64,000 nucleotides of DNA from Candidatus Chisholmbacteria bacterium RIFCSPHIGHO2_01_FULL_52_32 (GCA_001816585.1 MHCJ01000007.1:2062-66061), one strand, 5' to 3'. Positions 146-38,497 are shown, counted from the first letter of the stretch. Notes: a model not told the origin generated them from the letters alone. Made by a program: numbers and translations.

Positions 146-628
146 TTACTTCTTCTCTTTTTTGCCCGAAGCTTCGCTCGCCTTATCCGAAGGCAACTCA
201 ATCTTTGGATTTTCAACCGGAATCGGCCCCCGAATCGCCATTTCAAGCGATTGATAGGCCAACACGAAGGCAGAAAGAAACACCAGGATCATGACAAACT
301 CCAAAACACTTCGGAGTCCTCCCACATAGAGAATCCCCAGATTCTCAAGCCCATCAACCACCTTCACCAAGGCCAATACGCTCATCCCGGCGGCAATCAG
401 CTTCCAAACATGCTCAAGCTTTCCGCCCCGCATCAGGGAAGCTACCTTAATGGCAAACCAGGCCACGATCACCGGCAGAATGAGGCCGACGTCATTGACG
501 AGTTTGATATCAAACTTCTGGAATATTTGGGACGAGAACAGGACATCCTGAGGAGGTTCCGAGGCAAAAACAGGTGAAACCATCCACAAGAACGAACCGG
601 AAAGCAGTAGTCGAACAATCCGCCTCAT
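146..628 (-). CDS. hypothetical small integral membrane protein
   Basis: 160-aa ORF with several hydrophobic helices; its start overlaps the stop of the upstream ORF 625..945 by 4 bp (ATGA), suggesting an operon. Confidence 0.55.
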   Translation of the reverse strand: MRRIVRLLLSGSFLWMVSPVFASEPPQDVLFSSQIFQKFDIKLVNDVGLILPVIVAWFAIKVASLMRGGKLEHVWKLIAAGMSVLALVKVVDGLENLGILYVGGLRSVLEFVMILVFLSAFVLAYQSLEMAIRGPIPVENPKIELPSDKASEASGKKEKK

Positions 629-945
629 GTTTCCCCCTTTCCGGCCGATGCCGCCGCATTCGCCACGACTTCAGCGACAGTCCCCGGATGTTTTGCGAGT
701 AGCGGCTCGATCGTTTTGCGGACAATCAGTCCCGAGAGATTCACGTACCCATTGATGAGGGACTGTAAAAGATCCTTTGCTTCTCCGCTGAAATCAACTA
801 CTTTCCCCTCTTCAGAAAACTTCAGTCCTTCAACCTTCTTGGCGATAATCACGGAAATATCCGGTCCTAACACAACCACCTGTCGCGCGATGATCTCATT
901 AAACAGGGAAATATATTCATCCTTTGACGATTGTCCGTCCGGCAT
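625..945 (-). CDS. hypothetical protein
   Basis: 106-aa ORF translationally coupled to 146..628; a candidate minus-strand promoter TTGACA-17-TATCGT lies at ~983-1010. Confidence 0.45.
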   Translation of the reverse strand: MPDGQSSKDEYISLFNEIIARQVVVLGPDISVIIAKKVEGLKFSEEGKVVDFSGEAKDLLQSLINGYVNLSGLIVRKTIEPLLAKHPGTVAEVVANAAASAGKGET

Positions 946-1043: not shown

Positions 1044-1066
1044 GTGGGTGAGGGAGGGATCGAACC
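1044..1066 (-). other. tRNA 3'-end-like fragment (T-loop GGTTCGATCC plus acceptor-like tail) with no matching 5' half
   Basis: reverse complement reads ...GCGGGGTTCGATCCCTCCCTCACCCA; no complementary 5' acceptor strand within reach (tRNA-Ile starts 100 nt away); abuts repeat copy A. Confidence 0.3.
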
Positions 1067-1129
1067 CCGCACAGCTCCTGCCTGAGCTACGGCTTTCAAC
1101 CTGTACTCTCAGGCGCGTCGTCTACGGGG
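1065..1129. repeat. copy A of a 65-nt structured repeat (outer stem CCCCG/CGGGG, inner stem GCCTGAG/CTCAGGC, conserved CTCCTGCC and GCGCGTCGT-TACG blocks)
   Basis: aligns base-for-base with copies at 2744..2809 and 8620..8684; the outer stem differs from copies B and C by a compensatory C-G to A-T change. Confidence 0.6.
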
Positions 1130-1166
1130 CAAGCCTTCGACCTCTGAATACAATTTTTGAGCTTTG

Positions 1167-1238
1167 TGGGTAGCCGTGGAATCGAACCACGCACCTCTTA
1201 CTTATCAGGTAAGCGTTCTGCCGATGAACTAGCTACCC
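1167..1238 (-). tRNA. tRNA-Ile (anticodon GAU); CCA not encoded
   Basis: reverse complement folds as a cloverleaf: acceptor GGGTAGC/GCTACCC, D-arm GTTC-ATCGGCA-GAAC, anticodon arm CTTAC-CTGATAA-GTAAG, T-arm CGTGG-TTCGATT-CCACG, discriminator A followed by CA. Confidence 0.9.
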
Positions 1239-1646
1239 TTTTTATGTTTCAGCTCCCTCTACACCCGTCGCTCCCCGGAGAACATCATCGACGTGCTCAG
1301 GCTTACCGGCAGTCGCTGCTTTGGTCGCCTCAACCCCCACAGCTCTTACCGCCTCAGGATGCTCGGCGATGACTCGACCCAAATGTTCCCGGAGCTCCTT
1401 TCCCGATAACTCCGCTACCGATGTTCCCGGCTTTGTTTCTGCCATCATACCTCCTTAACAGAACTCCCCTATCCTACCATAGACTTCTGAAAAAATCACA
1501 TCATGGCAAAACTAAAACCCTAAGATTTACGTTTTGAGTTTGAACGGATGCTTACACAGCAAGTATGTATTTTTCCCAGGAAATCATATGGGCTGATGCA
1601 TAATATTACCTACTACACCAATCTTTTCTCATCTCTGGCACTTACC

Positions 1647-1675
1647 TTGACAATGTGCTAATCACGTGGTATAGT
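1647..1675 (+). promoter_or_regulatory. near-consensus sigma70 promoter TTGACA-17 nt-TATAGT
   Basis: TTGACA at 1647-1652, exactly 17-nt spacer, TATAGT at 1670-1675. Confidence 0.6.
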
Positions 1676-1694
1676 ATCCCCATTCGGACAGGAG

Positions 1695-1726
1695 AATATT
1701 AGCCCCAAAGGCTAATATTTTTTTAA
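1695..1726 (+). terminator. intrinsic terminator: perfect 10-bp stem AATATTAGCC/GGCTAATATT, 5-nt loop, T7 run
   Basis: lies about 15 nt downstream of the predicted transcription start of the 1647 promoter; either a ~45-nt transcript or an attenuator. Confidence 0.55.
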
Positions 1727-1770
1727 GGCCTGAGCATTGAAAAATAAAATCTGATTGATCGCTCAAAAGA

Positions 1771-1957
1771 AAAACCCTTTTGAACGCAGCTACTCGAGAA
1801 TGAAGTGAGCGAATACCACTAAGATGTCATCGACTGTTCGACGAAGGGTTTATCCCGAGGAGTTTGATGACATGGAATGAGCGAACGAGTTCCCGAGAGA
1901 CCGTTCACTGGGGCGTCATTCTTTGGTTACTTTCTTGGATGAGCAAGAAAGTAACAA
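1771..1957. ncRNA. copy 1 of a conserved ~190-nt structured non-coding element (family unidentified)
   Basis: collinear nucleotide similarity to 58806..59001, including covarying hairpin GAGCG-(loop GGTTCCCGARAGA)-CGYTC and terminal hairpin TTTCTTGG-loop-CAAGAAAG; no credible ORF. Confidence 0.4.
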
Positions 1958-2123
1958 TTTCTCCTGGGTTCCACTCTGGTGGGAGGCTGCGAGCGCCTTT
2001 TTTTTAATTAGGTTCGTCCTTCCAGCGTTCCGCCAGAGTCGAGTCCAGGATGAAATACCCGGACGAAGACCCCGTAGCCATAGGAACTATGTGGTACCGG
2101 GGTTGAGTCCAGGAAAAATAAAA

Positions 2124-2186
2124 AACGCTTTAGAGGAGCAATCACGAAGGGCTTTGATACGCCGTGCCTCTAAAGCACGGCGTTTT
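2124..2186 (+). terminator. terminator hairpin GCCGTGC-CTCTAAA-GCACGGC plus TTTT, with an upstream alternative pairing GCTTTAGAGG/CCTCTAAAGC (antiterminator-like)
   Basis: two mutually exclusive pairings visible in the sequence; resembles a riboswitch or attenuator expression platform. Confidence 0.4.
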
Positions 2187-2368
2187 AGTTGTCCGAAGTA
2201 AATTGCTCTTTTAAAACCTTTTGAAGCCGCCGCCGCCGCGACTCAAAGATGAAACGAGTGGGAAACCAAAACTGACCGAAGGGAATTTTGGAGGGAAATG
2301 AAATGAACCTGACTGAAAGTCAAGATCTCCCACCGTCGAATCTGAAGAATCGCCGGCAAGGCTTCACT

Positions 2369-2420
2369 AGGGGGCCATTCTTTTGGATACTTTTCTTGGG
2401 CAAACAAGAAAAGTATCAAC
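2369..2420. repeat. partial third copy of the terminal hairpin module of the ~190-nt element (GCCATTCTTTTGG-ATACTTTTCTTGGGCAAACAAGAAAAGTATC)
   Basis: matches 1912-1957 and 58953-59001. Confidence 0.45.
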
Positions 2421-2743
2421 CGCCTGGATCCCAGGCATATGTAAAAACTTATAGTAATATAATCTGGGACTCTCCCCTCTGGTGGTCCCGGGAATTATTG
2501 ACAATAAACCTTAACAATTTGACCGAAAATAGGTGTCCGGGAGCGTGGGAGAAAAGGGCCAGCCTCGACTAGACGCCAGCCTCGCATAGATACAAGTCTA
2601 GGCGGGCGAGTCTAGGCGGGAGCAAATCCTCTAAAGCGCAGGCCGAAAGACCTGAAAACCCCTTTCTCCTACACTCCCTGGCATCAGGGGAGTCCCAAGA
2701 TTGCCTTGGGAAGATCCCCAAGATGAAAGGGGTTGCTCTTTAA

Positions 2744-2809
2744 CCACGCTACAACTCCTGCCTGATCTACGGCCTACGGCCTGTACTCTCAGGCACGTCG
2801 TATACGTGG
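2744..2809. repeat. copy B of the 65-nt structured repeat (outer stem CCACG/CGTGG)
   Basis: same orientation as copy A, 1.6 kb away; the two bracket the non-coding island. Confidence 0.6.
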
Positions 2810-3059
2810 TCTGCAGAGCTCATCTCGACATATTGTCGGGATTCGCTCTTTGACAATTGAATGGCGAGGTTCCCGATGAATACATCGAGAACCGAAGTCC
2901 CGCAGCAAAACCCGAATACCGATACGGCCGAATAGGCAGTGAGCGGTAAGTCGAGTTTTTGGTGCTGGGACGAGGTTCTCTGTATCCTCGGGAATCTTCA
3001 TAAAAATGAAAATAGGCGCAATAGTGATGCAGGGAAGAGTGGAATAAAACTATCTCACT

Positions 3060-3386
3060 TTACGAGGAGTGTTGCCCGCCAGGATGGATACTTTCAAGCT
3101 TCTCAAGCCTCTCTTCATGATCGTAAACTTTTGGAGCGAAAATATCCAGACTTTCTCGAATAGCTTTCAACTGGCCCATCACATCGGAGATAGCATTCAT
3201 AATTCGACTGCTATACATCTGGAACTTTTCCTCAAGTCTTCGGTCAACGACTTGCTCGATCTGATCAACATCCTGCTCCGTAAGCATAACGACACAATTC
3301 AACCACATCATCCCAAAGGAGTCAACGACATTTTGGGGAAGCAATTCCCCTCCACTCTCCCCTGCATCACTCGGGGAAAAACCCAC
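3060..3386 (-). CDS. hypothetical small protein (uncertain)
   Basis: 108-aa ORF divergent from the gene at 3421; competes with an overlapping plus-strand ORF 3069..3512 that runs out of frame into the next gene. Confidence 0.3.
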   Translation of the reverse strand: MGFSPSDAGESGGELLPQNVVDSFGMMWLNCVVMLTEQDVDQIEQVVDRRLEEKFQMYSSRIMNAISDVMGQLKAIRESLDIFAPKVYDHEERLEKLESIHPGGQHSS

Positions 3387-3420
3387 GCCCGTAAAGGGCT
3401 AGAGAAAAGGAGAAGGGACG

Positions 3421-3879
3421 ATGAAGTCGTTGAGGAAAGTGATCTTGCCCGCCGTAGTAGCAACTGCTATCTGTGTCCTCTTGTCGGAGGTATTGTTCCG
3501 GCTGCTGACTGATGCGCCGACCGCAAGTCCGCTCCGCTGGCTCGTGACTGACATGCAGCGCTTCACCGTGCTGATCTCTGTTCTACTTACTGCAGCCGTG
3601 CTGCTTCGACGGGACGATCGAGCACCTGAAGAAGTCCTGATGAGCGGATTCAGATTCACCGTCAAGGTCTACTGGCTGTACATCCGGATCGTCGTCGCGA
3701 TCGTGAGCACCGCCGTGGTTGCATACCTGGTAGTTGGCGCTGTCGTGGGAATCTTCAATCCCACAGATATCGCGATCTACCTGGGCGTCCCGATTCTGAC
3801 AGGCTTTGCGGCAGGAATACTCCTGCTGGCAGTCAAAGCCCTCATAAGAAGGAGTAACAACCACCAGCCGTCACCCTAG
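3421..3879 (+). CDS. hypothetical integral membrane protein (about 4 TM)
   Basis: 152 aa; ATG preceded by AAGGAG; the 20-nt leader AGGGCTAGAGAAAAGGAGAA is identical to the leader of the next gene. Confidence 0.7.
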   Translation: MKSLRKVILPAVVATAICVLLSEVLFRLLTDAPTASPLRWLVTDMQRFTVLISVLLTAAVLLRRDDRAPEEVLMSGFRFTVKVYWLYIRIVVAIVSTAVVAYLVVGAVVGIFNPTDIAIYLGVPILTGFAAGILLLAVKALIRRSNNHQPSP

Positions 3880-3919
3880 AGCCACCGGGCTCAGGGCTAG
3901 AGAAAAGGAGAAAAGGATC

Positions 3920-4573
3920 ATGAACGCGGAGACTCCTGTTGAACAGCCGATCTATGATGCCATAGATAATGCGTGGGCACATGCAAGCATCTGGGGCAAG
4001 ATCGGCATGGTTCTTGGAACACTGTTGGGAATCGTCCTACTCTTCTCTTGCATCTGGTCTTGGACCGCTGCAAGAGCTGCTAGGGACATGGCAGTCTCCA
4101 GAGCCAGGGAAGAGCTCCGGCAGAGCATCGGCATGGAGGTCGATGTCTTCGGCAACCCACACCCGGCCAGGTTCAGGGTTGAGAAAAACAGTCCCTGGGA
4201 CGAGCCTGTCAGAGGAACCCTCGTTGTCCTGCTTCCAGAAGGAGCCGAAGACTTCCAGATCTTGCCGGCCCTTGAGGTATCCGACACCGATTCGGGCTTG
4301 TTTGGCCTCACGGATTTCGAGCTTGCGCTCTCGAAATGCAGCTTCTCCGTCAACTACAACGTCGACGGGGTGCAACGCGCTCGAGTCTGGAATGGGTGCC
4401 CCACATTGAAGGAGGGCATCGAGATCGACGTTCGGGAGATCGAGGCCCGCGTCGGTGAAGACGAACATGCCTGGTCGCAGCCCACCCGCTCAACGAAAGA
4501 GTACGATCTGTTCGAGGTATTCGGGCTGTTAGTAGGCCTTCTCATCGACCAGCCAGAAGAATCCGGGAAGTGA
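3920..4573 (+). CDS. hypothetical single-pass membrane protein
   Basis: 217 aa; identical 20-nt leader and Shine-Dalgarno as the gene at 3421. Confidence 0.7.
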   Translation: MNAETPVEQPIYDAIDNAWAHASIWGKIGMVLGTLLGIVLLFSCIWSWTAARAARDMAVSRAREELRQSIGMEVDVFGNPHPARFRVEKNSPWDEPVRGTLVVLLPEGAEDFQILPALEVSDTDSGLFGLTDFELALSKCSFSVNYNVDGVQRARVWNGCPTLKEGIEIDVREIEARVGEDEHAWSQPTRSTKEYDLFEVFGLLVGLLIDQPEESGK

Positions 4574-4728
4574 TCACCCGCTCCGTATCCCGCAACCGAG
4601 GAGGACAAACTGAACAATCCTGACTCGTGAAAGACGGTAGAGACAACCGAAACTCATCCGCCTCCTGATCCCGAACTCACCGACAAGGTGAGAAATCTCC
4701 CGGGCAGGAGAAAGAAGGAGAAGGTGAA

Positions 4729-7065
4729 GTGAACCATCGTAACCGTACGTGGTATCCCCGTCTGGCGCTGGTCACGGTGGCAAGCATGCTGCTTGCCGCT
4801 GTCATGCCAATCGTTCCCACCGCCGCTTCGCCGGCAACCAGGCCTCTCGCCTGGAACGTCAGCCAAACGGCCGAGTCCGTCTGCATCCCTGAAAACCAAG
4901 TGGGTATCCAGGGAAGCTTCCGAAACGATGACAACCGTTCGATGGACGTCGTCGCCACGGACGAGCAGACGGGAAAATCCGTCAACCTGGGATCGGTCGC
5001 CCCGAATGAGACTGATGAGTTCCTCATCGAAACCGGCCTGTCGGTTGTTACCGAGGGCAAGGTCAGGTTCGACCTAACCTGGACGCAGGAAGATGATGAC
5101 GATGAGGACGGCGATACGACCCCGACGGAACCGCCCCCGGCGGAAACCGAAGATCCGACGGATGAGGCATCCCCGACTCCAACGGAGACCGTCGAGCCGG
5201 CACCGGAGGAAACGCCCATCCCTGATGATGACGGCGACGATTCCGATGACACGGAAGACTCGGACGACTCCGACGACGGAGAAGAGGAAGACGACGACTC
5301 CGACGGAGATGACCAGGACGATGACGGCGAAGATTCCGAAGACTCGGATGATTCCGACTCTGAGGATCGCAAGGGCGATCACGACGATGACGACGAAGAC
5401 GAGGATGAGGGAGACGACACGGCTTCGGCCGTTTTGAACTTCTTCTCAATCGGCGCCGTCGCCAATGCGGGCGGAAACCACGACGAGAAGTTCGCAGAGT
5501 ACGACGCCCGCGACTGCCGCCAGCCCGAACCGACCCCTGAGCCGACACAAGAACCGCCTCCTTCATGCTCGATATTGGCCTCTGCCAACAACGAGCAGTG
5601 GGTGAGCGTCAGCGTCGACTACTCAGGTGGACCTACCGGCTGGTGGTGGCAACTCGAGTACAACCTCGGAACTGGGTGGACCGAATGGGCAGGTTGGCAA
5701 AATGGCAGTTCGCCGAACCCATGGACTGCGGGCCAGACGTTTGCTCCAGGAACTCTAGACCTTCGGGTCAACTTTCTGGGCATCGGAAATGGCATCTGCG
5801 GTACATCGGTCGTCGTCCCCGAATCTCCTCCACCGGAGCCAACCCCGGAGCCGACTCCCGAACCGCGGGAGAACCCGCAATGTACCGGCGCATCCTACGC
5901 CTTCACGGACATCTTCCGCGAGGTCGAGGTCACTGCTTCCTGGCAGAACGCCACTATGACCTCCGTCGTCTGGGAGGACGCCACCCACTTCGAGTGGAGC
6001 AGTCCCTACCCTGACGGAGAAGGATCAGCCAAGCACATCATCGACGAAGCGCTCGGACCCGGGCCGCACCTGATCCAGGTTGTGGTCACCGGCGCCGAAG
6101 GCACCGATCCGAGCCTTTGCTCGCCGATCGAAGTGACCTTCCCAGCGCCACCGCGACCGACCCCGGAGCCCAAGCCTGAAGTCAGCGCCGCTGTACAGTC
6201 CCTTCCGCAGCTCTCCTTCTGCCTGAAGAGCCCAGCCATCGTGCTTGAGCGCGGTGGTGAGATCGTCCGTCTGGACGTGGACCTCCAAAAGCTTGTGATC
6301 GTTCAGGAGACCATCCTATCGGCAGACCTGGAGGGCATCAGCACTCACTCGAGGATCAGCCCGGACGGCTGCTTGGTCGTTTTCAGCCACACCATGCCAG
6401 GCGCTTCCCAAGCGGAGCTCTGGACGGTCGGGCTCAACGGCCAAGGGCTGTACCAAGTCACCCGGACAGAGGATGCAAGCGAAATCCAGCCTGACTGGGC
6501 CTCCAACTGGGTGATCGACTACAGCGCCGGAGGACAGCTTTTCTCGACAGACCGTCTGTACACGTTCGTCCGCGACCTGCGCGTCGCCGGAACAAGCCCT
6601 GACGCATCGCCGGACGGCGAGTGGGTAGGCTATACCGACCCGGATGGGAACATCCGCATCGTCAGCGCCCACACCGCACGTCTGGGTGACTTTGCCACCG
6701 GCTTGACCGGCACGAATCCGACGTTTGATCCCCGCGGAACTACGCTGTTCTACACCAGTGACGCCGGCCTCGAAGCGTTTACCTTCGCAAACCGCGAAGT
6801 AACCACCATCGACCGCTCCGCCACCGACATCGCACGGGATCCATCCAATCACGCAGCCCTCCTGGTTGTCAGCGGAGAGCTAGTGGTAGTCGATCCGGTG
6901 GATTCGGCAAATGTCGTCGGCACCCTCACCGGCCCCGAAGCCGAAACCGGCTTCCGAGCCCTGGCGGTCGAAGCCCCGAACCTCTCACCCGACTGGTGGG
7001 ATCCGAATCCGTTGGTGCCCAGCACCATCGGACTCCAGCTGTTCCTCACAGGGAACGGCACCTAA
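4729..7065 (+). CDS. secreted multidomain protein: signal peptide, ~110-aa poly-acidic (D/E/S) tract, proline-rich PEPTPEP linkers, C-terminal TolB-like beta-propeller repeats
   Basis: 778 aa; GTG start after AAGGAGAAGG; N-terminal hydrophobic signal; repeated SPDG..W.. propeller-like motifs; antisense ORFs over the acidic tract are artefacts. Confidence 0.8.
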   Translation: MNHRNRTWYPRLALVTVASMLLAAVMPIVPTAASPATRPLAWNVSQTAESVCIPENQVGIQGSFRNDDNRSMDVVATDEQTGKSVNLGSVAPNETDEFLIETGLSVVTEGKVRFDLTWTQEDDDDEDGDTTPTEPPPAETEDPTDEASPTPTETVEPAPEETPIPDDDGDDSDDTEDSDDSDDGEEEDDDSDGDDQDDDGEDSEDSDDSDSEDRKGDHDDDDEDEDEGDDTASAVLNFFSIGAVANAGGNHDEKFAEYDARDCRQPEPTPEPTQEPPPSCSILASANNEQWVSVSVDYSGGPTGWWWQLEYNLGTGWTEWAGWQNGSSPNPWTAGQTFAPGTLDLRVNFLGIGNGICGTSVVVPESPPPEPTPEPTPEPRENPQCTGASYAFTDIFREVEVTASWQNATMTSVVWEDATHFEWSSPYPDGEGSAKHIIDEALGPGPHLIQVVVTGAEGTDPSLCSPIEVTFPAPPRPTPEPKPEVSAAVQSLPQLSFCLKSPAIVLERGGEIVRLDVDLQKLVIVQETILSADLEGISTHSRISPDGCLVVFSHTMPGASQAELWTVGLNGQGLYQVTRTEDASEIQPDWASNWVIDYSAGGQLFSTDRLYTFVRDLRVAGTSPDASPDGEWVGYTDPDGNIRIVSAHTARLGDFATGLTGTNPTFDPRGTTLFYTSDAGLEAFTFANREVTTIDRSATDIARDPSNHAALLVVSGELVVVDPVDSANVVGTLTGPEAETGFRALAVEAPNLSPDWWDPNPLVPSTIGLQLFLTGNGT

Positions 7066-7487
7066 GTAGCACTCGTCCCACGAAGGGACAACCGAACCTC
7101 GCCATTCACCTGGAAGGGACCTCGCTCCCTACACCCGCTCACTGACGTTTCGCGTCAGGAAGAATAGTCAAGTCTGACTTGACGCATTCGGCAGCGGCAG
7201 GGTCGAACCTTTTCAGGTCACAAGGGTATCTGGTAATAGATCGGGCAGAGCAATGCCGTGAAGTCACTGGACGATCGAAAGATCGCGTGTCTTCTGGATT
7301 TCATCCAGACTGACCTCCACCTTCCCCATTGCCCGCGCCCCAAATCTCTACCAGCACTACCCTCCTTGGTCCGTTAAACGGGCCCTGATGAGATCTCGTC
7401 AGGATTGCAATTTGCATCCGACGATCCGTAAACAGGAATCAGGACATTTACCCTGAGCCTGTCGAAGGGCAGATCGAAAGGAAATCA

Positions 7488-8456
7488 CTACCGCTCACCC
7501 ATCACCACCGGCTCCTCATACACCCGCCATTCAATTTTTTCCATGAACCGCTTAAGGTAGTCCCGCTTCCACGCCAAGCTTCGGGGGGATTTCAACACCG
7601 CCAGCGGAAAATTCACCCGCAGCGCCCGGAACCGAATGATATGCCGGGTAATCCCGGGAGGAAACTTCTCTCCGGCCCGAACCACATTCAGCACATCCTG
7701 CGGCCGAAAGGTCGGGAAAAACAACACCACGTTTTTCCCTTGATGACGGCGGAAGAACTCCGCCAGGGTCTCTTCGTCAAAGAACACATCCTCCTGATCG
7801 CGAATCACCAAATGCTTATAGAAATCAACCACCTTGTTCATCAGGGAAACCTGCGAAACAAGCTCCTCATTCCCCCACACTCTGCACGCCTTCCCGTCGG
7901 CAAACACGACCAAACAAACCGTGCGCTTCTCCAAAGACACATGCCGATCCCGACCAACTTTAAGTAAATCAACCGAAACGCCGGGCAGCCCCCGAATAAG
8001 CCTCATGAACCGTCGCTCGTCAACCGCGGACACATGGCACCAGGATTTCAACTCGACCGACCGGGGATCAAAATAATCAACCACCTGAACGATCGCGTGG
8101 GGATAGCCGAGTTCCGCAAGGGTGGTAAGCCGATTCGCCCCATCCAAGTGGAGGTACCGCGAACCAAAGGCGGCCACGATCGGCGGGTTCATGAGCACTC
8201 CGTCCTCCTCTATTTTCCGCAGTAAGTCACGCGAAATACCGGAGTCAAAGTACTCCTGGATAACAACCGAGCGTAGGGGAACAATCCGAAGATCGGGAAG
8301 AAGGTAGGACATGAAAAGAGCATAGTGTATGAAAAAACTCACCGCAATAGGAAAGAGGAAGCCATATGCCAAAAACACCCCGCCAAAAAAGTTGCAGTCG
8401 GGGTGTATAATTGGGAGTGCCTGCTCCAGAAGAAATTGAACAATACTCCTGCCCAA
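7488..8456 (-). CDS. membrane-anchored protein with a ParB/Srx-like N-terminal domain (degenerate LDGANRL motif)
   Basis: 322 aa; N-terminal TM helix; the segment RYLHLDGANRLTTLAELGYPHAIVQVV resembles the ParB nuclease-domain core. Confidence 0.55.
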   Translation of the reverse strand: MGRSIVQFLLEQALPIIHPDCNFFGGVFLAYGFLFPIAVSFFIHYALFMSYLLPDLRIVPLRSVVIQEYFDSGISRDLLRKIEEDGVLMNPPIVAAFGSRYLHLDGANRLTTLAELGYPHAIVQVVDYFDPRSVELKSWCHVSAVDERRFMRLIRGLPGVSVDLLKVGRDRHVSLEKRTVCLVVFADGKACRVWGNEELVSQVSLMNKVVDFYKHLVIRDQEDVFFDEETLAEFFRRHQGKNVVLFFPTFRPQDVLNVVRAGEKFPPGITRHIIRFRALRVNFPLAVLKSPRSLAWKRDYLKRFMEKIEWRVYEEPVVMGER

Positions 8457-8619
8457 GTTTTCAATAAAAGATTGTTACGACAGTGATAACATCTCTAATC
8501 GACTTTTCCAAACCTGCCTGACACCTCCGAAAAAAGGGGTGTCGAACGTTTCCGTCGCGCCCAGGCGGCTGAATGTATCGTGCTCAGCCGATCGTTGGCG
8601 TGAGCGGAAAGCACTTTGA

Positions 8620-8684
8620 CCACGCTACAACTCCTGCCGGCAAAATCCGCTTAGCGTATTCTTGCGGGCGCGTCGTATACGTGG
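8620..8684. repeat. copy C of the 65-nt structured repeat (outer stem CCACG/CGTGG, variant inner stem)
   Basis: identical 5' block CCACGCTACAACTCCTGCC and 3' block GCGCGTCGTATACGTGG as copy B; about 30 nt of additional downstream similarity to the flank of copy B. Confidence 0.6.
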
Positions 8685-8899
8685 TTTGCGGTGCAAAAGC
8701 ACCTTAACAAGTGAATGATGAGGTTACTTGTCCCTTTTGTGGGACAAGGAATTCTCTATAGCCCCGGAAAACTCGACAATCGTGCGTTGCAGAGACATCC
8801 CCCGCGTTCCGCCAATCGGCGGACTACTGAGGAAAAGGAGGTCAACAGGAAACGGCCTATCAATCCGCGCGCTAAATCAAGTACGAAGGAGACGTTCCC

Positions 8900-9202
8900 A
8901 TGGCAAGACGGATCGGAATGGTCGTCGGGAGCGCTATTGGGCTGGCTGTCGGAGTGCCCGTCGCCATCGTCATGGTAGCCTCACGGCCGCACTTCAACAT
9001 CCAAAGCCCGGACGCCACGATTATCTGGTTCGCGCTGGTCTTCATCCTTCTCACCGTCTTGCCATACGTCTGCGCAGTGTTCTTCGGTGAGATAGCTGAA
9101 GCCGTCGTCCAGAAAGTGAACAAGCGTCGCAAACCACCGGCACCACCTCAAGCAGCGGTTGCGACCGACTCAAGGCCGCGACCAAGGGAGAAGCAGCCAT
9201 GA
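8900..9202 (+). CDS. small membrane protein (2 TM)
   Basis: 100 aa; ATG preceded by AAGGAG; stop overlaps the start of the next gene (ATGA). Confidence 0.55.
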   Translation: MARRIGMVVGSAIGLAVGVPVAIVMVASRPHFNIQSPDATIIWFALVFILLTVLPYVCAVFFGEIAEAVVQKVNKRRKPPAPPQAAVATDSRPRPREKQP

Positions 9203-10092
9203 AGACAAAACTGCAACCGATGATCCTCGTTTGCACGGCACTCTTCCTGGTCTCGTGCAGTAGAGATGCCTCCGCGCTGAGCAGCGGTGAGATCGCCGCC
9301 ACGGCACTCGCCGCAGATCTCCGGGAAACCGAGCAAGTCAACCAGGCGAAAGATCAAGCCAATCAGGCAACCGAGCAAGCCATCCAAGCTACTCAGGCAG
9401 CCCTGGAACAACCAACGGACATCCCCATACCAGTGGTGGCAACCCAACCAACCGAAGAGGTCTCTTCCTTTGCAGACATGGGTCTGAACCACTGGGCGTA
9501 TCAAGGCCGCAAGTGGGCCATCGACCAGGGTTATGCGACCGCATGCTCGGTCGAGGGCGGAGATCCGACCCAAGTCTACGCCTGCCCGGACAAGCCGATG
9601 CAAATCTGGGAGCTCATCGAGTCCGGAGTCAGGTTCTACCATGACACCCAGTCGTTCAGACCGCCGGAGGCCACGGGCAGAACCTTCGATGACCCTGACT
9701 TTCACGGCCACGAAGGTGAAGCGTGGGCAGAGGATGCCAGTCGGCAAAACATCCTTCCCGATTGGTTCCTCACCAACTACCCCAACCCGCACTACATCGG
9801 GCCCTTCCGCACGGCGACCCGCTGCGACGGCCACGTCTTTGTGCGGGTGCTCCTCTACAAGAAGCTCGAGTTCCCCAACTGGGACCTTTTGGCAGAGCGT
9901 CAATTCTCGGACTACTACAAAGCCTCGAGACTCTGCAATCAAGCCGCGGAAGCCAACCTCGAAGAGGGGATCTTCGACCCGGGCCCGGCAAGCCTGCTGG
10001 AGCCTGAACGGGAACTTGACTGGGGGTATTGGTCCGTCCTCCTCTATCAGGCTGACTCCGTCCGAACCAAGAACTCCGATCCGGCTAACTAG
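9199..10092 (+). CDS. secreted lipoprotein, function unknown
   Basis: 297 aa; lipobox-like LVSC after the signal peptide; the long antisense ORF 9148..10209 is rejected. Confidence 0.75.
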   Translation: MKTKLQPMILVCTALFLVSCSRDASALSSGEIAATALAADLRETEQVNQAKDQANQATEQAIQATQAALEQPTDIPIPVVATQPTEEVSSFADMGLNHWAYQGRKWAIDQGYATACSVEGGDPTQVYACPDKPMQIWELIESGVRFYHDTQSFRPPEATGRTFDDPDFHGHEGEAWAEDASRQNILPDWFLTNYPNPHYIGPFRTATRCDGHVFVRVLLYKKLEFPNWDLLAERQFSDYYKASRLCNQAAEANLEEGIFDPGPASLLEPERELDWGYWSVLLYQADSVRTKNSDPAN

Positions 10093-10130
10093 CGGTTGCG
10101 ACCTTCGGCCGTAACCAAGGAGAGGCATCC

Positions 10131-11276
10131 ATGTCCAAACGGTCGTTGATCCTGATTTCATCCGTGTTCGCCATCCTCCTGATTGGAGCCTGCACTCGCG
10201 TAGGTTCACCAGTATCCCAGCAGCAGATGTTGGGAACTTGGGTGGCAGGCAGTGTGACGGCGGTCTTCAGGACGCAGGAAGCTCAAGTCACGCCATCGGC
10301 AACGCCGTCGGCCACTCCACAACCTACGCACACCGCGACGGCTTCCCTCACCGCAACCGCCACCGTCACACCGATCATCGTCGTCGACGTGCCTGATCCC
10401 AAGGAGCGCGAGGACGCTCTTTGGAACATCGACAAGGACCTGATGAGGCCAAAGCTTCGGGACCCGTTGACCTTCGGCCGCAATGATCCCTACATCATGG
10501 GTGACATGGCCATCGCCATGGGGAGAGCCTGCCTGTGGGACAAGATCGAGAAGCCGTTCGGGACGGTTTTCACCGATCTGGGTGTCGTCGTACCCCCTCC
10601 AAGGGCCAGTCCTGAAGAACTCCGGCAGGCCGAGCATCAAAGGCTCGTCCTCGCAGTCTCGGAAGAGCTGTTCCAGCGGGGGCTCTATCTCCACAAGAAC
10701 CCGGCCAAGCCGAACCTGTCCAACTGGGACGACACGCTCACCCCAGATCAACTCCGCCAGTGGTGGGAAATGGCCTCCAACTCTCCCGAGTGCCGGGAGC
10801 AGATGACAAGCTCAGGTGGCGGGAACTCCCCCGGCATCACCCTTTTCACCAACGCCGTCAGTTTCAACCGGGTGAGTCTCCTGGCAAGCACGAACACGCC
10901 GAAGTCGAATCCGATTCCGACCCGGACTCCCGTCCCGAAGCCGACCGACCCACCGGAGCCGAAGCCCAAGACAGCCACGCCGGCTCCGCCAACAGCGGTT
11001 CCTCCATCCAATACGCCGGTACCACCGACCGACACCCCGGTACCACCCAGCAACACGCCCAAACCTGGAGGTGGTGGGAATGACGACGACGACGACCCGA
11101 CCAAGACCCCGAAGCCGGTGATCTATTACACGGCGACACCGTCTATTTGTGTCGATGGCGCCGTGGTCGGCGGCTGTGGTCTGACGAGAATCCAGGCGGC
11201 AGACCTTCTGCATCAATATCTCGCCGACTGGGTTTTCCCGCCCAACCAGCTGCCTCCATCGCAGAACGGTCCCTAG
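10131..11276 (+). CDS. secreted lipoprotein with a Pro/Thr-rich C-terminal linker
   Basis: 381 aa; signal peptide with IGAC lipobox; PT-rich low-complexity region. Confidence 0.75.
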   Translation: MSKRSLILISSVFAILLIGACTRVGSPVSQQQMLGTWVAGSVTAVFRTQEAQVTPSATPSATPQPTHTATASLTATATVTPIIVVDVPDPKEREDALWNIDKDLMRPKLRDPLTFGRNDPYIMGDMAIAMGRACLWDKIEKPFGTVFTDLGVVVPPPRASPEELRQAEHQRLVLAVSEELFQRGLYLHKNPAKPNLSNWDDTLTPDQLRQWWEMASNSPECREQMTSSGGGNSPGITLFTNAVSFNRVSLLASTNTPKSNPIPTRTPVPKPTDPPEPKPKTATPAPPTAVPPSNTPVPPTDTPVPPSNTPKPGGGGNDDDDDPTKTPKPVIYYTATPSICVDGAVVGGCGLTRIQAADLLHQYLADWVFPPNQLPPSQNGP

Positions 11277-11725
11277 CGCCTGCATCCGAAGCAGCGCCTC
11301 TCAGGACCTCATCATTCACAACCAGGGAAACGCACCCGTGTAATACCCACGCGCTAACCCTCTCCCCAGCGGAGAGAAGCAAACGCCGCGCGTTTGGCAA
11401 GACATAGGGAGCGTTCTCCCCCAGGAAAAAACGGGCAAGCTTTTTTGCTTGCGACTGGGCATCAAGTGTGGGGAAAGAACAAGAGAGAATCTGTCTCTCT
11501 GACTGAGGGAACCATCCCTCACTCAAGTTCCCCCCCACTCCCATTCGCAACCATCCGCCCGTTTTTTCATGCCTAAAAAGGGGAAATAGGAGTGCCAAAA
11601 CGATACAGGTTGTACATCCTTTACACAATAAACGATGTTCGGATGAAATAACTTGACCGCAAGGTGTATACTAATCTTCGCGATATATCTTCTGCTCAGT
11701 CTCCTGCTAGAATCTGCCCACCGTA

Positions 11726-12655
11726 ATGAAACAGAAACTCGGATTGGCAATCGGCGTCATCTGCCTCCTTCTTCTCGGAATGGTATCCGCTGTGCGGATC
11801 GCCAAGGCCGCCAGCCCCGCAGCTTGCTCAATCAACACCTTCCCTGTCAATGATCCCAACACCCGTTACCACACGGTCTTCACCTGGAGCAATGCCCACA
11901 CAAACCAATGGTTCCTCTTTCAATGGGGCGATGAAGCCAATACCGGCAAAGATCCCGTGGGATTCATCGGCCAAAGCGGTAGGGCGGAATGGGAACACGA
12001 GTACAACCCCGGAACTTGGGAACAGTGGGCAAACCTTTCCGGTCCGGGAGGAAACGGCGGATGCAAGGTCTCGGTAACCGTCCAGGTCACACAAGACCCC
12101 GCCAGCTGTACAATCGAAGCCTTTGTTGACGGATCAAATCCCAGCCTCTTCCACACGGTACTGCGCTGGAACAACACAAACGATGGCGAGTGGTCCCTTT
12201 TCCATTGGGGCGATGAGGAATTCACCAAAGCCGATCCCCCGGGATTCCGCGGACCGTTTGGGGAAATTTCCTGGGACCACGAGTACAACCCCGGAACCTG
12301 GGATCAGTGGGCCAACGTTGCAGGACCGAGAGGCAATGGGAGTTGTAAAGTCGTGGTTACCGCAAAACTCCAACAACCGGCGGCAACCTGTACCATCACC
12401 ACCAATCCGGTGAATGTCGAACAGACCCGCTTCCATACGACGCTCACTTGGAACAACTCGTACAGCGACCAATGGTCCCTCTTCCACTGGGGCGATGAAG
12501 AATTCACCCAAGCCGGCCCTGTCGGTTTCTTCGGCAGCAATGGAACAACGGAATGGGAACACGAATACAACCCCGGCACCTGGGAACAGTGGGCCAACGT
12601 TTCCGGTCCCGGCGGTCCCAGTGGCTGCAAAGTCATCACTTCCGTCAACCCATAA
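11726..12655 (+). CDS. secreted protein made of three ~95-aa tandem repeats (conserved HT.F/LTW.N....W.LF.WGDE and EHEYNPGTWEQWAN.SGPGGNG.CKV blocks)
   Basis: 309 aa; signal peptide; three collinear internal repeats, each starting with a Cys and ending with CKV. Confidence 0.8.
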   Translation: MKQKLGLAIGVICLLLLGMVSAVRIAKAASPAACSINTFPVNDPNTRYHTVFTWSNAHTNQWFLFQWGDEANTGKDPVGFIGQSGRAEWEHEYNPGTWEQWANLSGPGGNGGCKVSVTVQVTQDPASCTIEAFVDGSNPSLFHTVLRWNNTNDGEWSLFHWGDEEFTKADPPGFRGPFGEISWDHEYNPGTWDQWANVAGPRGNGSCKVVVTAKLQQPAATCTITTNPVNVEQTRFHTTLTWNNSYSDQWSLFHWGDEEFTQAGPVGFFGSNGTTEWEHEYNPGTWEQWANVSGPGGPSGCKVITSVNP

Positions 12656-12697
12656 ACCACCTTGAAAGGTCTGACCTTTCAAGGTAATCTTCCCCAC

Positions 12698-12728
12698 AAA
12701 AAAACCGCCTCTTAAAGCGGTTTTCTTG
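12698..12728 (+). terminator. intrinsic terminator AACCGC-loop-GCGGTT plus T-run
   Basis: follows the stop of 11726..12655; preceded by an A-run, so possibly bidirectional. Confidence 0.55.
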
Positions 12729-12756
12729 TTTCTTGTTTCTTGTTACTCCTGACAGC

Positions 12757-12773
12757 TCAAGATGTGGTAGGAA
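12757..12773 (-). promoter_or_regulatory. 3' half of the pre-16S processing stem (TCAAGATGTGGTAGGAA; pairs with 14394..14410)
   Basis: 17-bp perfect inverted repeat flanking the 16S gene, the arrangement seen in RNase III processing stems. Confidence 0.6.
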
Positions 12774-12788
12774 AAACCGGTTTTTTTA
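12772..12788 (-). terminator. palindromic terminator AAAAACCGGTTTTTTT downstream of the 16S 3' end
   Basis: GC-cored palindrome flanked by A and T runs, about 45 nt after the 16S 3' end. Confidence 0.5.
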
Positions 12789-12828
12789 CAAGACACCGGC
12801 AAACCTTGCGTGAGTGAAAAATATCTCC

Positions 12829-14345
<1,517 letters not shown>

Positions 14346-14393
14346 AAATTTGACGCAGTCAAATCCGCCAACTGGCGGACAGACCACGTCTGA

Positions 14394-14410
14394 TTCCTAC
14401 CACATCTTGA
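14394..14410 (-). promoter_or_regulatory. 5' half of the pre-16S processing stem
   Basis: reverse complement of 12757..12773. Confidence 0.6.
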
Positions 14411-14465
14411 ACTATCAAAATGAACCTTACTCTATTGAGTCTATTATTCACTTTTCAAAGAGCAC

Positions 14466-30063: not shown

Positions 30064-31197
30064 CAATTGCCTCCTCGTAAATCCGAAACAGCTTCTTTTG
30101 CATAACAGATAGACTGAAATGCGCAAGGTAGCGCCGCCGAGCCGCCTGCCCCAACCTCCCTCTTAAGTCCGCGTCCAAAACTAGCCGTTCAAGTGCCTCC
30201 GCCAAATCGCCCACGCTTCCAGGCCGCACCAACAACCCCGTCTGTCCATCAACGACCATCTCGGGCAACGCTCCCAGCCGTGAGGCCACCACAGGAATCC
30301 CAAAGCTCATCGCCTCACAAACTACCAGGCCATACCCTTCAGCCTTCGGCGGAACATGGACCAAGATATCCGCCGCCGGGTAAAACTCCGAAACCAGCCG
30401 GTCATAGGAAACAAAATCATGCTGCGTAATCCCGTAAGATTTGTCATTTGTCATTTGTAATTTGTAATTTTTAGGCACCGGTCCCAAAATCGTCAACCGC
30501 ACCGTATCTCCCAACATCTCTCTCACTTTCCGGTATGCCTCCCACAAAATCATTCCCCCCTTCCGCTCAAACCACACTCCGGCAAAAAGTAGTCGAACCG
30601 GACCAACCTTTCGAACCGAAGGTTCCGCTCGATCCGATAGGCCCGGATAGATAACCGCGATTTTTGCGGGATCAGCTCCCAGTGCAATATGCTCCTGTTT
30701 GGCAAACTCACTCATCACCAAGAGTTTCGAGAAATTGCCCAGGGAAAGATCCTGGTCATAAACGGAAAGGAGGGAATGCATCGCCCGCCGCAATCCGTAC
30801 GTAGCCTCGATGCGAAGCCTTCCCTGACCAAAGTATTGAGAAAGCCCCCAACGATTGGGGATACTGTCCCCCATGACCACGGGAATGTGTCGCAAAGACC
30901 CCGAAAGCCGAAGTGTATACGCATGGCAGTGGACAAGATCGAACTTCCCCAAAATCTCAACATCAACGGTTCCTGCCGAAAGGGGCAGGATACGAAACTT
31001 CACCAGCGTCCGAAGAAAAGCGTGGAAGGAGCCATACCGAACCTCCCCCTTCTTAAGCGCGTCCGTATGGTGCACGTACGTCACGCCGGGTGGCGGATTG
31101 GCAAGCAGCGTCCGGGTATAGGTATTCTCCCCACCCATCAGAAACTTGAGGTTCAAAGGAACATCTGGATCGAGCGGTGAAATCAAAAGCACCCGCA
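30056..31197 (-). CDS. GT4 (group 1) glycosyltransferase
   Basis: about 380 aa; EGYGLVVCEAMSFGIPVVA motif; start assigned to ATG MRVLLISPL, with an alternative GTG at 31213; carries an internal heptamer tract. Confidence 0.85.
30439..30473. repeat. in-frame heptamer tract (ATTTGTC)x2 (ATTTGTA)x2 ATTTTTA inside the GT4 coding sequence
   Basis: 5 consecutive 7-mers encode the NYKLQMTNDK linker; the unit length is not divisible by 3. Confidence 0.8.
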
Positions 31198-31223
31198 TAA
31201 TAAAGCGCAGCACTCTGCTCTCT

Positions 31224-31272
31224 GCTATTCGCTATTCGCTATTCGCTATTCGCTATTCGCTATTCGCTATTC
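31224..31272. repeat. perfect heptamer tandem repeat (GCTATTC)x7 in the divergent intergenic or 5' region
   Basis: 7 perfect copies plus degenerate CTCTGCT flank copies; lies 10-30 bp upstream of the GT4 start codon on the minus strand and about 80 bp upstream of the rmlD-like gene. Confidence 0.9.
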
Positions 31273-38405: not shown

Positions 38406-38425
38406 TTTAAGAATTGTTGTATTGC

Positions 38426-38497
38426 TAAATTGTTAAATTGTTAAAACAATAGAACAATGAGCGAGCGCTAGTGAGCGATAACAATAGAACAATGAAC
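38426..38497. promoter_or_regulatory. operator-like motif cluster: TAAATTGTTAAATTGTTAAA, then AACAATAGAACAATGA twice (19 nt apart), the second overlapping the start codon
   Basis: shares the 14-mer AACAATAGAACAAT with 32279-32292. Confidence 0.45.

What the first reader, a model, noticed from the sequence alone, without database searches (positions are those of the whole stretch)
8597..8730. Third copy of the 65-nt element, with extended similarity to the flank of copy B
Copy C (8620-8684) keeps both terminal blocks and the CCACG/CGTGG stem, but has a different inner stem that is still base-paired (GCCGGCAA/TTGCGGGC).

About 30 nt downstream, ACAAGTGAATGATGAGGTTAC parallels ACAATTGAATGGCGAGGTTCC after copy B. 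A GTGAGCGG(A/T)AAG motif also occurs next to both. The functional unit may therefore be about 120 nt.

It lies in the intergenic region between the ParB/Srx-like gene (minus) and a small membrane-protein gene (plus).
Basis: seen in the sequence. Interest (0 to 1): 0.55.

Follow-up and report, generated by a model that had tools for sequence, protein, structure and literature searches.

The report
Small mobile hairpin element, third copy
Copy C is a genuine third copy of a roughly 70-base hairpin-forming insertion element shared by Anaerolineae-like bacteria and Patescibacteria (CPR), but the extra similarity beside copies B and C is the host's own boxA transcription signal, not part of the element.

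Summary
Window 8620-8684 is a third copy of the element at 1065-1129 (A) and 2744-2809 (B).

A pattern and a covariance model found nine more copies elsewhere, in one Anaerolineae-like relative and eight low-GC, CPR-like contigs. On 12 copies the three-helix hairpin is 92.8% paired, against 31-41% for slid controls, and 8 pairs change on both sides. No Rfam family matches.

The flank similarity is real but is not element sequence. GCWCYTTRAMAANTGAAT occurs three times in the window: after B, after C, and in the genuine 16S rRNA leader. It is a boxA-type leader motif. Copy A and the CPR-like copies lack it, so the proposed 120-nt unit fails. GTGAGCGGWAAG is at chance level.

The element comes and goes at orthologous sites. 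A close relative (L134) has an intact tRNA-Ile exactly where copy A interrupts a tRNA T-arm. In other genomes the element lies between a working gene end and a displaced duplicate of that end (tRNA 3' ends; the first 13-17 codons of ruvC, galU-like and PHP-like genes). A leader ORF reads through the hairpin and ends in an ATGA overlap with the working start.

Best reading: a non-autonomous mobile hairpin element. The mechanism is unresolved and no partner enzyme was found.

The parts
8620..8684 (-). Copy C: hairpin core (P1 CCACG/CGTGG, conserved asymmetric internal region, P2, P3)
   Evidence: Sequence; pattern hit; R1 77.8 bits; fold -31.3 kcal/mol, z -3.1, on the minus strand. The strand assignment is tentative.
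8685..8688 (-). Four-base tail 5' of P1 on the minus strand (CAAA in C, CAGA in B, CTTG in A)
   Evidence: Alignment of copies. For A the tail lies inside the insertion when compared with the empty site in L134.
8611..8620 (+). Partial boxA-like repeat GCACTTTGAC abutting the hairpin (last base shared with P1); a possible displaced or duplicated piece of the target
   Evidence: Read. It matches 8 of 10 bases of GCACCTTAAC at 8699-8708. On its own this is weak statistically (one search found no significant repeat for C).
8690..8703 (+). Small hairpin GGTGC-AAAA-GCACC just before and overlapping the boxA-type motif (boxB-like position)
   Evidence: Folds. The genuine 16S leader has a hairpin in the same position before its boxA.
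It belongs to the host operon leader (genes 8900-11276 on the plus strand), not to the element.
   Evidence: One of only 3 window matches to GCWCYTTRAMAANTGAAT. Compared with the Aquifex rrn BoxA 12-mer GGCUCCUUGGCA (PMC3177189).
8600..8611 (+). GTGAGCGGAAAG: a chance-level motif, not part of the element
   Evidence: 2 hits, and 14 of 100 shuffles reach at least 2.
2744..2809 (-). Copy B hairpin core
   Evidence: 95.1 bits; -42 kcal/mol, z -6.5.
2845..2862 (+). boxA-type motif GCTCTTTGACAATTGAAT downstream of B on the plus strand. The relative L008 keeps it at the same locus without any element.
2735..2744 (+). Partial boxA-like repeat GCTCTTTAAC abutting copy B
   Evidence: Read; 9 of 10 identical to 2845-2854.
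1065..1129 (-). Copy A hairpin core, with tail CTTG (plus-strand caag at 1130-1133)
   Evidence: 80.9 bits. Absent from the orthologous site in L134.
1044..1064 (-). Displaced 3' part of a tRNA-Ile (T-loop, T-stem 3' strand, acceptor 3' strand) directly 3' of copy A
   Evidence: TTCGATCCCTCCCTCACCCAC is identical over 21 of 21 bases to the 3' end of the intact tRNA-Ile of L134.
1134..1145 (-). AGAGGTCGAAGG: variable-loop and T-stem 5' strand of the same interrupted tRNA, directly 5' of CTTG and hairpin A
   Evidence: 10 of 12 identical to L134 GAAGGTCGGAGG.
1166..1238 (-). Working tRNA-Ile (GAU). It is a different sequence type (acceptor GGGTAGC) from the interrupted one.
14446..14463 (-). Genuine boxA of the 16S rRNA leader (GCTCTTTGAAAAGTGAAT), preceded by a hairpin. 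It serves as the reference for the flank motif of B and C.
   Evidence: 16S rRNA at 12833-14347 on the minus strand.

Best explanation
Copy C is one insertion of a small, non-autonomous, hairpin-forming mobile DNA element. The element is about 70 nt: a 4-nt tail plus a 65-nt three-helix hairpin with a strongly conserved, asymmetric internal region.

**Shown.**
- It is a discrete unit with fixed ends, found in unrelated contexts in the Anaerolineae-like window genome, in one relative, and in eight low-GC, CPR-like contigs.
- Its helices are kept by compensating changes.
- It is present or absent at orthologous sites.
- At one site the insertion can be read to the base against an empty site.
- The similarity next to B and C is the host's boxA leader motif.

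**Inferred.**
- It moves, or is recombined, as a folded single strand recognised by an enzyme encoded elsewhere. This is the logic of IS200/IS605 ends, REP sequences, integron attC sites and CTX-phage attP.
- It prefers T-loop-like sequence (TTCRA / TYAAAG), which the reverse complement of boxA resembles. That would explain why B, C and L005 sit beside boxA leaders.
- Insertions survive only where the hit gene end is backed up by a second copy. This would leave the observed architecture of working gene end, spacer, hairpin and displaced gene end.

How that duplicate arises is not resolved. It could be a carried replacement end, a Campbell-type integration of a minicircle, or one-sided homologous recombination ending at the hairpin.
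For: **Family and structure.**
- 3 window copies, 7 metagenome loci holding 6 distinct copies, L008, and L052 and L106.
- 92.8% of cells are paired against 31-41% for slid partners. 8 pairs change on both sides. No shuffle (0 of 500) reaches the covariation score.
- No Rfam match.

**More conserved than the host.** A is 91% identical to L006 over 67 nt, while the two 16S rRNAs align at 79-86%. Subtypes A, B and C each have their closest relative in another genome.

**Presence or absence.**
- No element after tRNA-Ile in L134 (neighbouring protein 90% identical), nor in L133 or L138-L142.
- B and C are absent from the syntenic L008. C lies near the edge of a 4.4-kb block that L008 lacks.

**Duplicated gene ends.**
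- Direct repeats of 37-43 nt start at the hairpin base in L001, L002 and L006 (z 5.7-11.4). L008 has a 16-nt repeat with one mismatch (z 3.8).
- The repeats are gene ends: tRNA 3' ends or codons 1-17.
- 18 synonymous against 3 nonsynonymous codon differences; 0 of 20000 random-mutation simulations do as well.
- The leader ORF reads through the hairpin and ends in an ATGA overlap with the working start in 3 of 3 cases.

**Flank motif is boxA.**

**Orientation.** The element is sense to tRNAs but antisense to protein genes and boxA leaders. That argues against a fixed cis-acting RNA role.
Against: - Only 12 copies are known.
- No transposase, integrase or reverse transcriptase was found beside any copy. 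The one exception is an IS3-type transposase about 500 nt upstream in L007, which may be coincidence. None turned up among 20 window ORFs tested.
- Copy number in the window is low (3, all within 9 kb).
- The repeats flanking B and C are short and not significant on their own.
- The T-loop-like preference holds for 7 of 12 right flanks, and some of those loci may not be independent.
- Invariant G-U pairs and an extremely conserved internal region would also suit a functional RNA.
- The window's working tRNA-Ile differs from the interrupted one over its whole length, and L134 keeps a 5' remnant of the window type. A simple insertion does not explain this.
- A relative's ruvC (L149) shows the same duplicated-start architecture with a different, short hairpin. 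The duplication process may therefore not be specific to this element.
Confidence: 0.6

Rival explanations
1. A functional structured non-coding RNA transcribed from the minus (pattern) strand. It could be a small RNA co-transcribed with tRNAs, or a cis-regulatory leader such as a riboswitch-like aptamer whose P1 competes with a downstream terminator.
For: - Covariation and invariant internal-loop sequence.
- The minus strand folds better, and the pair at alignment columns 16-62 is G-U in all 12 copies.
- Four copies follow tRNA genes on the same strand.
- In L052 the 3' strand of P1 could also pair with a downstream CCCCG followed by a U run (read).
Against: - There is no consistent orientation or distance to any gene class. 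The element is antisense to ruvC, galU-like and PHP-like genes and to the boxA leaders.
- It is absent from close relatives at the same loci.
- It interrupts a tRNA T-arm and coding sequence.
- No conserved promoter or terminator was seen.
- No Rfam family matches.
Confidence: 0.15
2. The hairpin together with boxA is one functional antitermination unit (nut-like: hairpin plus boxA, about 120 nt) on the plus strand. This is essentially the first reader's extended-unit idea.
For: - B, C and L005 each have the hairpin 15-35 nt upstream of a boxA-type motif on the plus strand, ahead of plus-strand operons.
- A strong conserved plus-strand promoter lies at 1647-1675.
Against: - The genuine 16S leader, and the B locus of L008, have boxA with only a short ordinary hairpin and no element.
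- Copy A has no boxA, and no convincing boxA was seen beside the CPR-like copies.
- A separate small hairpin already occupies the boxB-like position next to each boxA.
Confidence: 0.07
3. A passive recombination scar. Any stable hairpin marks where incoming homologous DNA was trimmed and joined (one-sided, homology-facilitated illegitimate recombination). On this view the element is carried along rather than actively mobile.
For: - It sits exactly at junctions between a displaced gene end and a diverged complete copy, with a synonymous-difference pattern typical of two functional homologues.
- L149 has the same architecture at ruvC with a different short hairpin.
- Gene content upstream of ruvC varies among relatives.
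- All window copies lie in segments that differ from L008.
Against: - It does not explain why the same 65-nt sequence (80-91% identical) recurs in distant phyla with fixed ends.
- It does not explain the clean insertion inside a tRNA T-arm with matching tRNA-derived sequence on both sides.
Confidence: 0.13
4. A degenerate tRNA or tRNA-like gene.
For: - Copy A sits just downstream of tRNA-Ile, where a second spacer tRNA might be expected, and is followed by a T-loop and acceptor-like 3' end.
- Part of the conserved block (GCAGGAGCTGTGCGG) resembles a tRNA anticodon-stem, variable-loop and T-stem stretch (my own reading).
Against: - ARAGORN and the Rfam tRNA model do not detect it.
- There is no acceptor 5' strand, D-arm or 7-nt anticodon loop.
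- The tRNA-like flank belongs to an interrupted tRNA-Ile that is intact in L134.
- B, C and the copies in protein genes have no tRNA flank.
Confidence: 0.03

Closest known systems
Single-strand hairpin recombination substrates: IS200/IS605 ends and their miniature derivatives, REP/REPIN sequences with RAYT transposases, integron attC sites, CTX-phage attP (from general knowledge of these families)
   Same: - Function depends on an imperfect hairpin with conserved unpaired or asymmetric bases rather than a perfect palindrome.
- Helices are kept by compensating changes.
- Insertion is orientation-specific, and at the one readable site (A against L134) there is no clear target duplication.
- The element is non-autonomous; no enzyme gene sits inside it.
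   Different: - It has one 65-nt three-helix hairpin instead of two end hairpins (IS200/IS605) or a 20-40-nt REP.
- No attC R/L core sites (RYYYAAC/GTTRRRY) are recognisable.
- No TnpA, RAYT or IntI gene was seen nearby.
- Copy number is low.
- It is accompanied by duplicated host gene ends, which none of these families produce.
Integrative elements that land in gene ends and carry a replacement end (tRNA-gene islands; phages 21 and e14 in icd)
   Same: - A working gene end on one side and a displaced partial copy on the other.
- The copies differ mostly at synonymous sites.
- tRNA duplicates begin in the T-loop.
   Different: - The DNA between the two copies is only about 80-120 nt (spacer plus hairpin), with no integrase and no cargo.
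- The targets differ from copy to copy (tRNA-Ile, tRNA-Pro, tRNA-Arg, ruvC, a galU-like gene, a PHP-like gene, boxA leaders).
Palindromic repeats tolerated inside genes or operons: Rickettsia palindromic elements (in-frame in ORFs and RNA genes) and mycobacterial MIRUs (small ORFs overlapping the neighbours' stop and start codons) (from general knowledge)
   Same: - A hairpin repeat is translated as part of an ORF.
- In 3 of 3 cases the ORF ends in an ATGA overlap with the next start, which would keep translational coupling.
   Different: - Here the host gene is not extended in frame. It is restarted from a duplicated 5' end.
- The sequences are unrelated and the lineages are different.
boxA/boxB antitermination signals of rRNA leaders (PMC3177189; PMC10250234 abstract)
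   Same: The flank motif of B and C matches the window's own 16S leader boxA, and is preceded by a small hairpin.
   Different: This applies to the flank only. The 65-nt element is not a constant partner of boxA.

Membership tests
Any Rfam 15 RNA family | Covariance-model match at or near the gathering score | tested here: not met
   The gathering scan of the window found only 16S rRNA and tRNA. E-value scans around C and around A and B gave nothing on the element.
REP / REPIN (RAYT-associated) | 20-40 nt palindrome with a GTAG or CGTC head, tens to hundreds of copies per genome, RAYT gene in the genome | tested here: not met
   The element is a 65-nt three-helix hairpin. Only 3 copies occur in 64 kb, all within 9 kb. 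RAYT presence in the whole genome is not testable here. REP features are taken from the abstract of PMC3733652.
Classical MITE | Terminal inverted repeats matching a transposase family, and a short fixed target-site duplication | tested here: not met
   Only the 5-bp P1 is symmetric; the conserved interior is asymmetric (TAKACGACG against AGGAGYTGTA). At the A/L134 empty site there is no clear duplication, 0-2 bp at most.
IS200/IS605-derived miniature element | Subterminal hairpins at both ends, insertion 3' of a 4-5 nt target without duplication, TnpA (Y1) in the genome | tested here: inconclusive
   Insertion without duplication at A. A T-loop-like motif abuts one end in 7 of 12 copies. But there is a single hairpin only, and no TnpA was seen in 20 window ORFs.
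Integron attC / cassette array | R''/R' core sites RYYYAAC...GTTRRRY at the hairpin base, extrahelical bases, same-orientation arrays of short cassettes, IntI nearby | tested here: not met
   The three copies do share one strand. The base of the hairpin does not fit the core sites (my reading). The intervals of 1.6 and 5.8 kb hold genes on both strands. Copy A lies inside a tRNA T-arm. IntI was not searched genome-wide.
tRNA-targeting integrative island | Partial duplicate of the tRNA 3' end at the far junction, with an integrase gene between the repeats | tested here: not met
   Duplicate present: L008 16 nt with one mismatch; window A fragment. Only 14-37 nt plus the hairpin lie between the tRNA and the duplicate in A, L052 and L106, so there is no room for an integrase.
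boxA/boxB (nut-like) antitermination site | boxA consensus in a leader, with the hairpin as a constant partner | tested here: not met
   boxA-type motif present beside B and C. The hairpin is absent from the 16S leader and from the L008 B locus. boxA is absent beside A, and no convincing boxA was seen beside the CPR-like copies.
Riboswitch / cis-regulatory leader RNA | Fixed orientation upstream of a recurring gene class | tested here: not met
   Neighbouring genes are unrelated and the orientation is mixed.

The most novel reading that the evidence does not exclude
The element is the recognition hairpin of a minimal integrative unit: a circle or single strand of about 80-150 nt consisting of the hairpin, a short leader with a ribosome-binding site, and a replacement copy of a conserved gene end. 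It integrates by recombining with the resident gene end. This leaves the resident end displaced and still translated, and the restored gene restarted by translational coupling. It would spread between phyla (Chloroflexota and Patescibacteria) by using universally conserved sequences such as tRNA T-loops and conserved N-terminal codons as landing sites. That would be an integrase-island architecture reduced to its two ends, which to my knowledge has not been described.
Probability: 0.2. Interest if true: 0.85.

Novelty: new variant of a known kind. Interest (0 to 1): 0.6.

Why it matters
If it holds, this is a new family of very small mobile hairpin elements shared by two distant, mostly uncultured bacterial lineages. 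In the one pair measured, the element is more conserved than the hosts' 16S rRNA.

It marks places where essential gene ends (tRNAs, ruvC, a galU-like gene) have been duplicated or replaced. It therefore gives a concrete sequence handle on how genes are swapped in place in these genomes.

Practically, it explains odd 'leader ORFs' and tRNA fragments that annotation pipelines will miscall. It also shows that boxA-type leaders are used ahead of protein operons lodged inside the split rRNA locus of this Anaerolineae-like genome.

Tried and rejected
- **Strict pattern in GTDB species genomes:** 0 hits.
- **Relaxed pattern in GTDB genomes:** Only L052 and L106 are real. The 19-29-bit hits are driven by the forced pattern and lack P1 or P3.
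- **Viral contigs:** one scan found nothing; the other found two chance matches at 13.7 bits.
- **Known RNA families:** none match.
- **tRNA, tmRNA or tRNA-like reading of copy A:** rejected.
- **Promoter and terminator scans around the copies:** nothing consistent.
- **Link to the ParB-like gene:** its homologues in L008 and L009 have no element upstream.
- **Link to the conserved 106-aa protein next to A:** its homologues in Patescibacteria (L127-L132) and in other Anaerolineae-like contigs (L133-L145) have no element.
- **K-turn, hammerhead and attC core-site readings of the conserved internal region:** done by eye only; none fitted.
- **Partner enzyme in the window:** 20 ORFs scanned against Pfam. 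All that matched are sugar or methyl transferases, epimerases or ATP-grasp enzymes.
- **Literature:** four text searches found no description of such an element.

Full report
**1. The observation**

The sequence at 8620-8684 is as described. A two-block pattern taken from the three copies hits only 1071-1126, 2751-2806 and 8627-8681, all on the minus strand, with no hits in 100 shuffles. A covariance model built later scores the three copies at 78-95 bits; the next window hit scores 16 bits. Copy C keeps the outer stem and has a different, still paired, inner stem. Each copy folds somewhat better as the minus strand. For B the energies are -42 against -32 kcal/mol.

**2. A real family with a conserved fold**

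- The pattern found 7 metagenome loci, L001-L007, holding 6 distinct copies.
- A syntenic relative fetched through the ParB-like protein (L008) carries one copy that the pattern had missed.
- A relaxed pattern in GTDB genomes gave two more true copies, L052 and L106, among about 115 chance hits.
- On the 12 copies the three-helix hairpin is 92.8% paired, against 31-41% when partners are slid. 8 pairs change on both sides. No shuffle (0 of 500) reaches the covariation score.
- The region between P1 and P2 (TAKACGACGY on one side, AGGAGYTGTA on the other) is nearly invariant and asymmetric. The feature is therefore not a simple DNA palindrome.
- No Rfam family matches.

**3. The hosts**

- Homologues of the ParB-like protein are named Anaerolineae or Chloroflexota.
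- Eight of the nine copies found outside the window sit in low-GC contigs (38-43% GC) with CPR-like genes. One of these carries a 16S rRNA with a group I intron and LAGLIDADG ORFs. The ninth, L005, is a 52%-GC contig whose copy and flank resemble B.
- RuvC homologues of the L006 protein are named Woesebacteria, Levybacteria and Dojkabacteria.
- Copy A is 91% identical to the L006 copy over 67 nt, whereas the two 16S rRNAs align at 79-86%. Each window subtype has its nearest relative in another genome.

**4. The extended flank**

B, C and L005 share GC(T/A)C(T/C)TT(G/A)A(C/A)AANTGAAT 15-35 nt from the hairpin on the plus strand. In the whole window this motif occurs three times: after B, after C, and on the minus strand about 100 nt upstream of the 16S rRNA, where it follows a small hairpin.

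It resembles rrn BoxA. The Aquifex 12-mer is GGCUCCUUGGCA (PMC3177189); the E. coli form UGCUCUUUAACA is from my own knowledge. The shared flank is therefore a host boxA-type leader signal for the plus-strand operons that start at 3421 and 8900.

L008 keeps this boxA at the B locus without any element. Copy A has none, and no convincing boxA was seen beside the CPR-like copies. GTGAGCGGWAAG is chance-level.

**5. Presence or absence**

The window's minus strand is syntenic with L008: MnmA, 16S (with its own terminator), the ParB-like gene, tRNA-Ile, two conserved small ORFs, tRNA-Ala, 23S.

- L008 has an A-like copy after tRNA-Ile but lacks B and C. C lies near one edge of a 4.4-kb block that L008 does not have.
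- L134, whose neighbouring protein is 90% identical to the window's, has tRNA-Ile followed directly by that ORF and no element. The same holds for L133 and L138-L142.
- Aligned to L134, copy A is exactly CTTG plus the hairpin (70 nt). It is inserted between the T-stem 5' strand and the T-loop of a tRNA-Ile whose 3' 21 nt are identical to the intact L134 gene.
- The window's working tRNA-Ile is a different sequence type, and L134 retains a 5' remnant of that type. This locus has therefore seen tRNA gene replacement as well as the insertion.

**6. A recurring architecture**

Read on the pattern strand, the copies with interpretable flanks show: working gene end, spacer, hairpin, displaced duplicate of the same gene end.

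- *tRNA cases (element sense to the tRNA):* window A and L008 (tRNA-Ile), L106 (tRNA-Pro), L052 (tRNA-Arg). The duplicate begins in the T-loop.
- *Protein cases (element antisense to the gene):* L006 ruvC, L002 a galU-like gene, L001 a PHP-like gene. Repeats of 37-43 nt cover the start codon to codon 13-17 (z 5.7-11.4).
- The two copies differ by 18 synonymous and 3 nonsynonymous codons, which 0 of 20000 random-mutation simulations match. Both N-terminal variants of RuvC exist in related full-length proteins. Both copies therefore come from functional genes.
- In all three protein cases an ORF starting at the displaced ATG runs through the hairpin and spacer and stops in an ATGA overlap with the working start codon. 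The per-locus chance is 0.12-0.34 with the reading frame given, so the joint chance is about 2e-4 with the frame left free.
- A relative's ruvC (L149 and L150) has eight displaced codons, a different short hairpin and a restarted gene. Gene content upstream of ruvC varies among relatives.

**7. Interpretation**

The discrete ends, the cross-phylum identity, the mixed orientation relative to host transcription, the insertion polymorphism and the interruption of a tRNA T-arm and of coding sequence all point to a selfish, non-autonomous DNA element, not to a cellular RNA gene or a regulatory leader.

Helix conservation with an asymmetric conserved core points to recognition of a folded single strand. 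This is inference by analogy with IS200/IS605 ends, REPs, attC and CTX attP. Seven of 12 right flanks begin T[TC][CA][AG][AG], which is T-loop-like; the reverse complement of boxA (TGTCAAAG) fits this. That gives a plausible reason why B, C and L005 sit beside boxA leaders.

The origin of the gene-end duplicates is unresolved. A carried replacement end or minicircle integration fits the protein cases. It does not easily fit the window's tRNA-Ile locus. A passive 'recombination end at a stable hairpin' model fits L149 but not the element's sequence conservation.

**8. Limits**

- Only twelve copies are known.
- No partner enzyme was found.
- There are no expression data.
- The literature searches found no prior description, but the searchable library is incomplete.

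Noticed in passing
window 1166-14347 (minus strand), compared with L008 and L134: The rRNA locus is split. 16S rRNA (12833-14347) has its own processing stem and a terminator-like hairpin with a U run at about 12690-12725. tRNA-Ile lies 11.6 kb further on, with protein genes on both strands in between. In relatives the order continues: tRNA-Ile, two small conserved ORFs, tRNA-Ala, 23S, 5S (L008, L133, L134).
   Followed up: partly
window 146-945 (minus strand); L127-L145: The pair of small ORFs (106 and 160 aa) between tRNA-Ile and tRNA-Ala is conserved in the Anaerolineae-like contigs. The 106-aa protein has about 50% identical homologues in Patescibacteria. It has no Pfam domain.
   Followed up: partly
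window 1647-1675 (plus strand); L008 about 14365-14400: A near-consensus promoter (TTGACA, 17 nt, TGnTATAGT) is conserved in L008. It points into about 1 kb of ORF-poor, partly conserved sequence that leads to copy B and its boxA.
   Followed up: no
window 2159-2183; L008 about 14100-14125: A conserved hairpin CGCCGTGC-TTTAGAG-GCACGGCG with the loop motif CTTTAGAGG. The same motif recurs at about 2630-2645 and about 2125-2140.
   Followed up: no
L134 about 1000-1070: Upstream of its working tRNA-Ile, L134 keeps the first 24 nt of the window-type tRNA-Ile, interrupted in the D-loop by a 39-nt insertion with its own hairpin. The two lineages appear to have lost opposite halves of two different tRNA-Ile genes.
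   Followed up: partly
L138 about 1540-1640; L008 14708-14775: A partial tRNA (variable loop, T-arm, acceptor 3' strand) follows tRNA-Ile in both. In L138 its T-loop carries a different insertion of about 38 nt that itself looks like a tRNA 5' fragment. The region downstream of tRNA-Ile is a graveyard of tRNA fragments.
   Followed up: no
L149 2100-2190; L150 612-702: ruvC is preceded by eight displaced ruvC codons (all 5 codon differences synonymous), a 27-nt hairpin CCCCGCAAAAGCCTTTGGCTCGCGGGG, and a new ribosome-binding site. This is the same architecture as at the element but with a different, or much reduced, hairpin.
   Followed up: partly
L006 2604-5255: The 16S rRNA gene carries a group I intron near its 3' end, and two LAGLIDADG-type ORFs lie within the gene (2627-3139 and 3840-4460).
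   Followed up: no
window 11863-12679 and 5224-5424: Three 282-nt tandem repeats lie inside an ORF (11726-12655, no Pfam hit). A highly acidic D/E/S-rich repeat lies in the 778-aa secreted-looking protein (4729-7065).
   Followed up: no
window 8523-8562 and 8370-8405 (minus strand): Two terminator-like hairpins with U runs lie between copy C and the ParB-like gene. The gene's real start is probably near 8318 rather than the TTG at 8456, since homologues cover only about 83% of the long ORF.
   Followed up: no
window 15900-64000: The rest of the window is largely a polysaccharide-biosynthesis cluster: glycosyltransferases, FkbM-type and other methyltransferases, epimerases, a DegT aminotransferase and ATP-grasp enzymes. 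Short AT-rich periodic repeats occur in several intergenic regions (for example 30428-30470, 31217-31272, 38404-38448).
   Followed up: no
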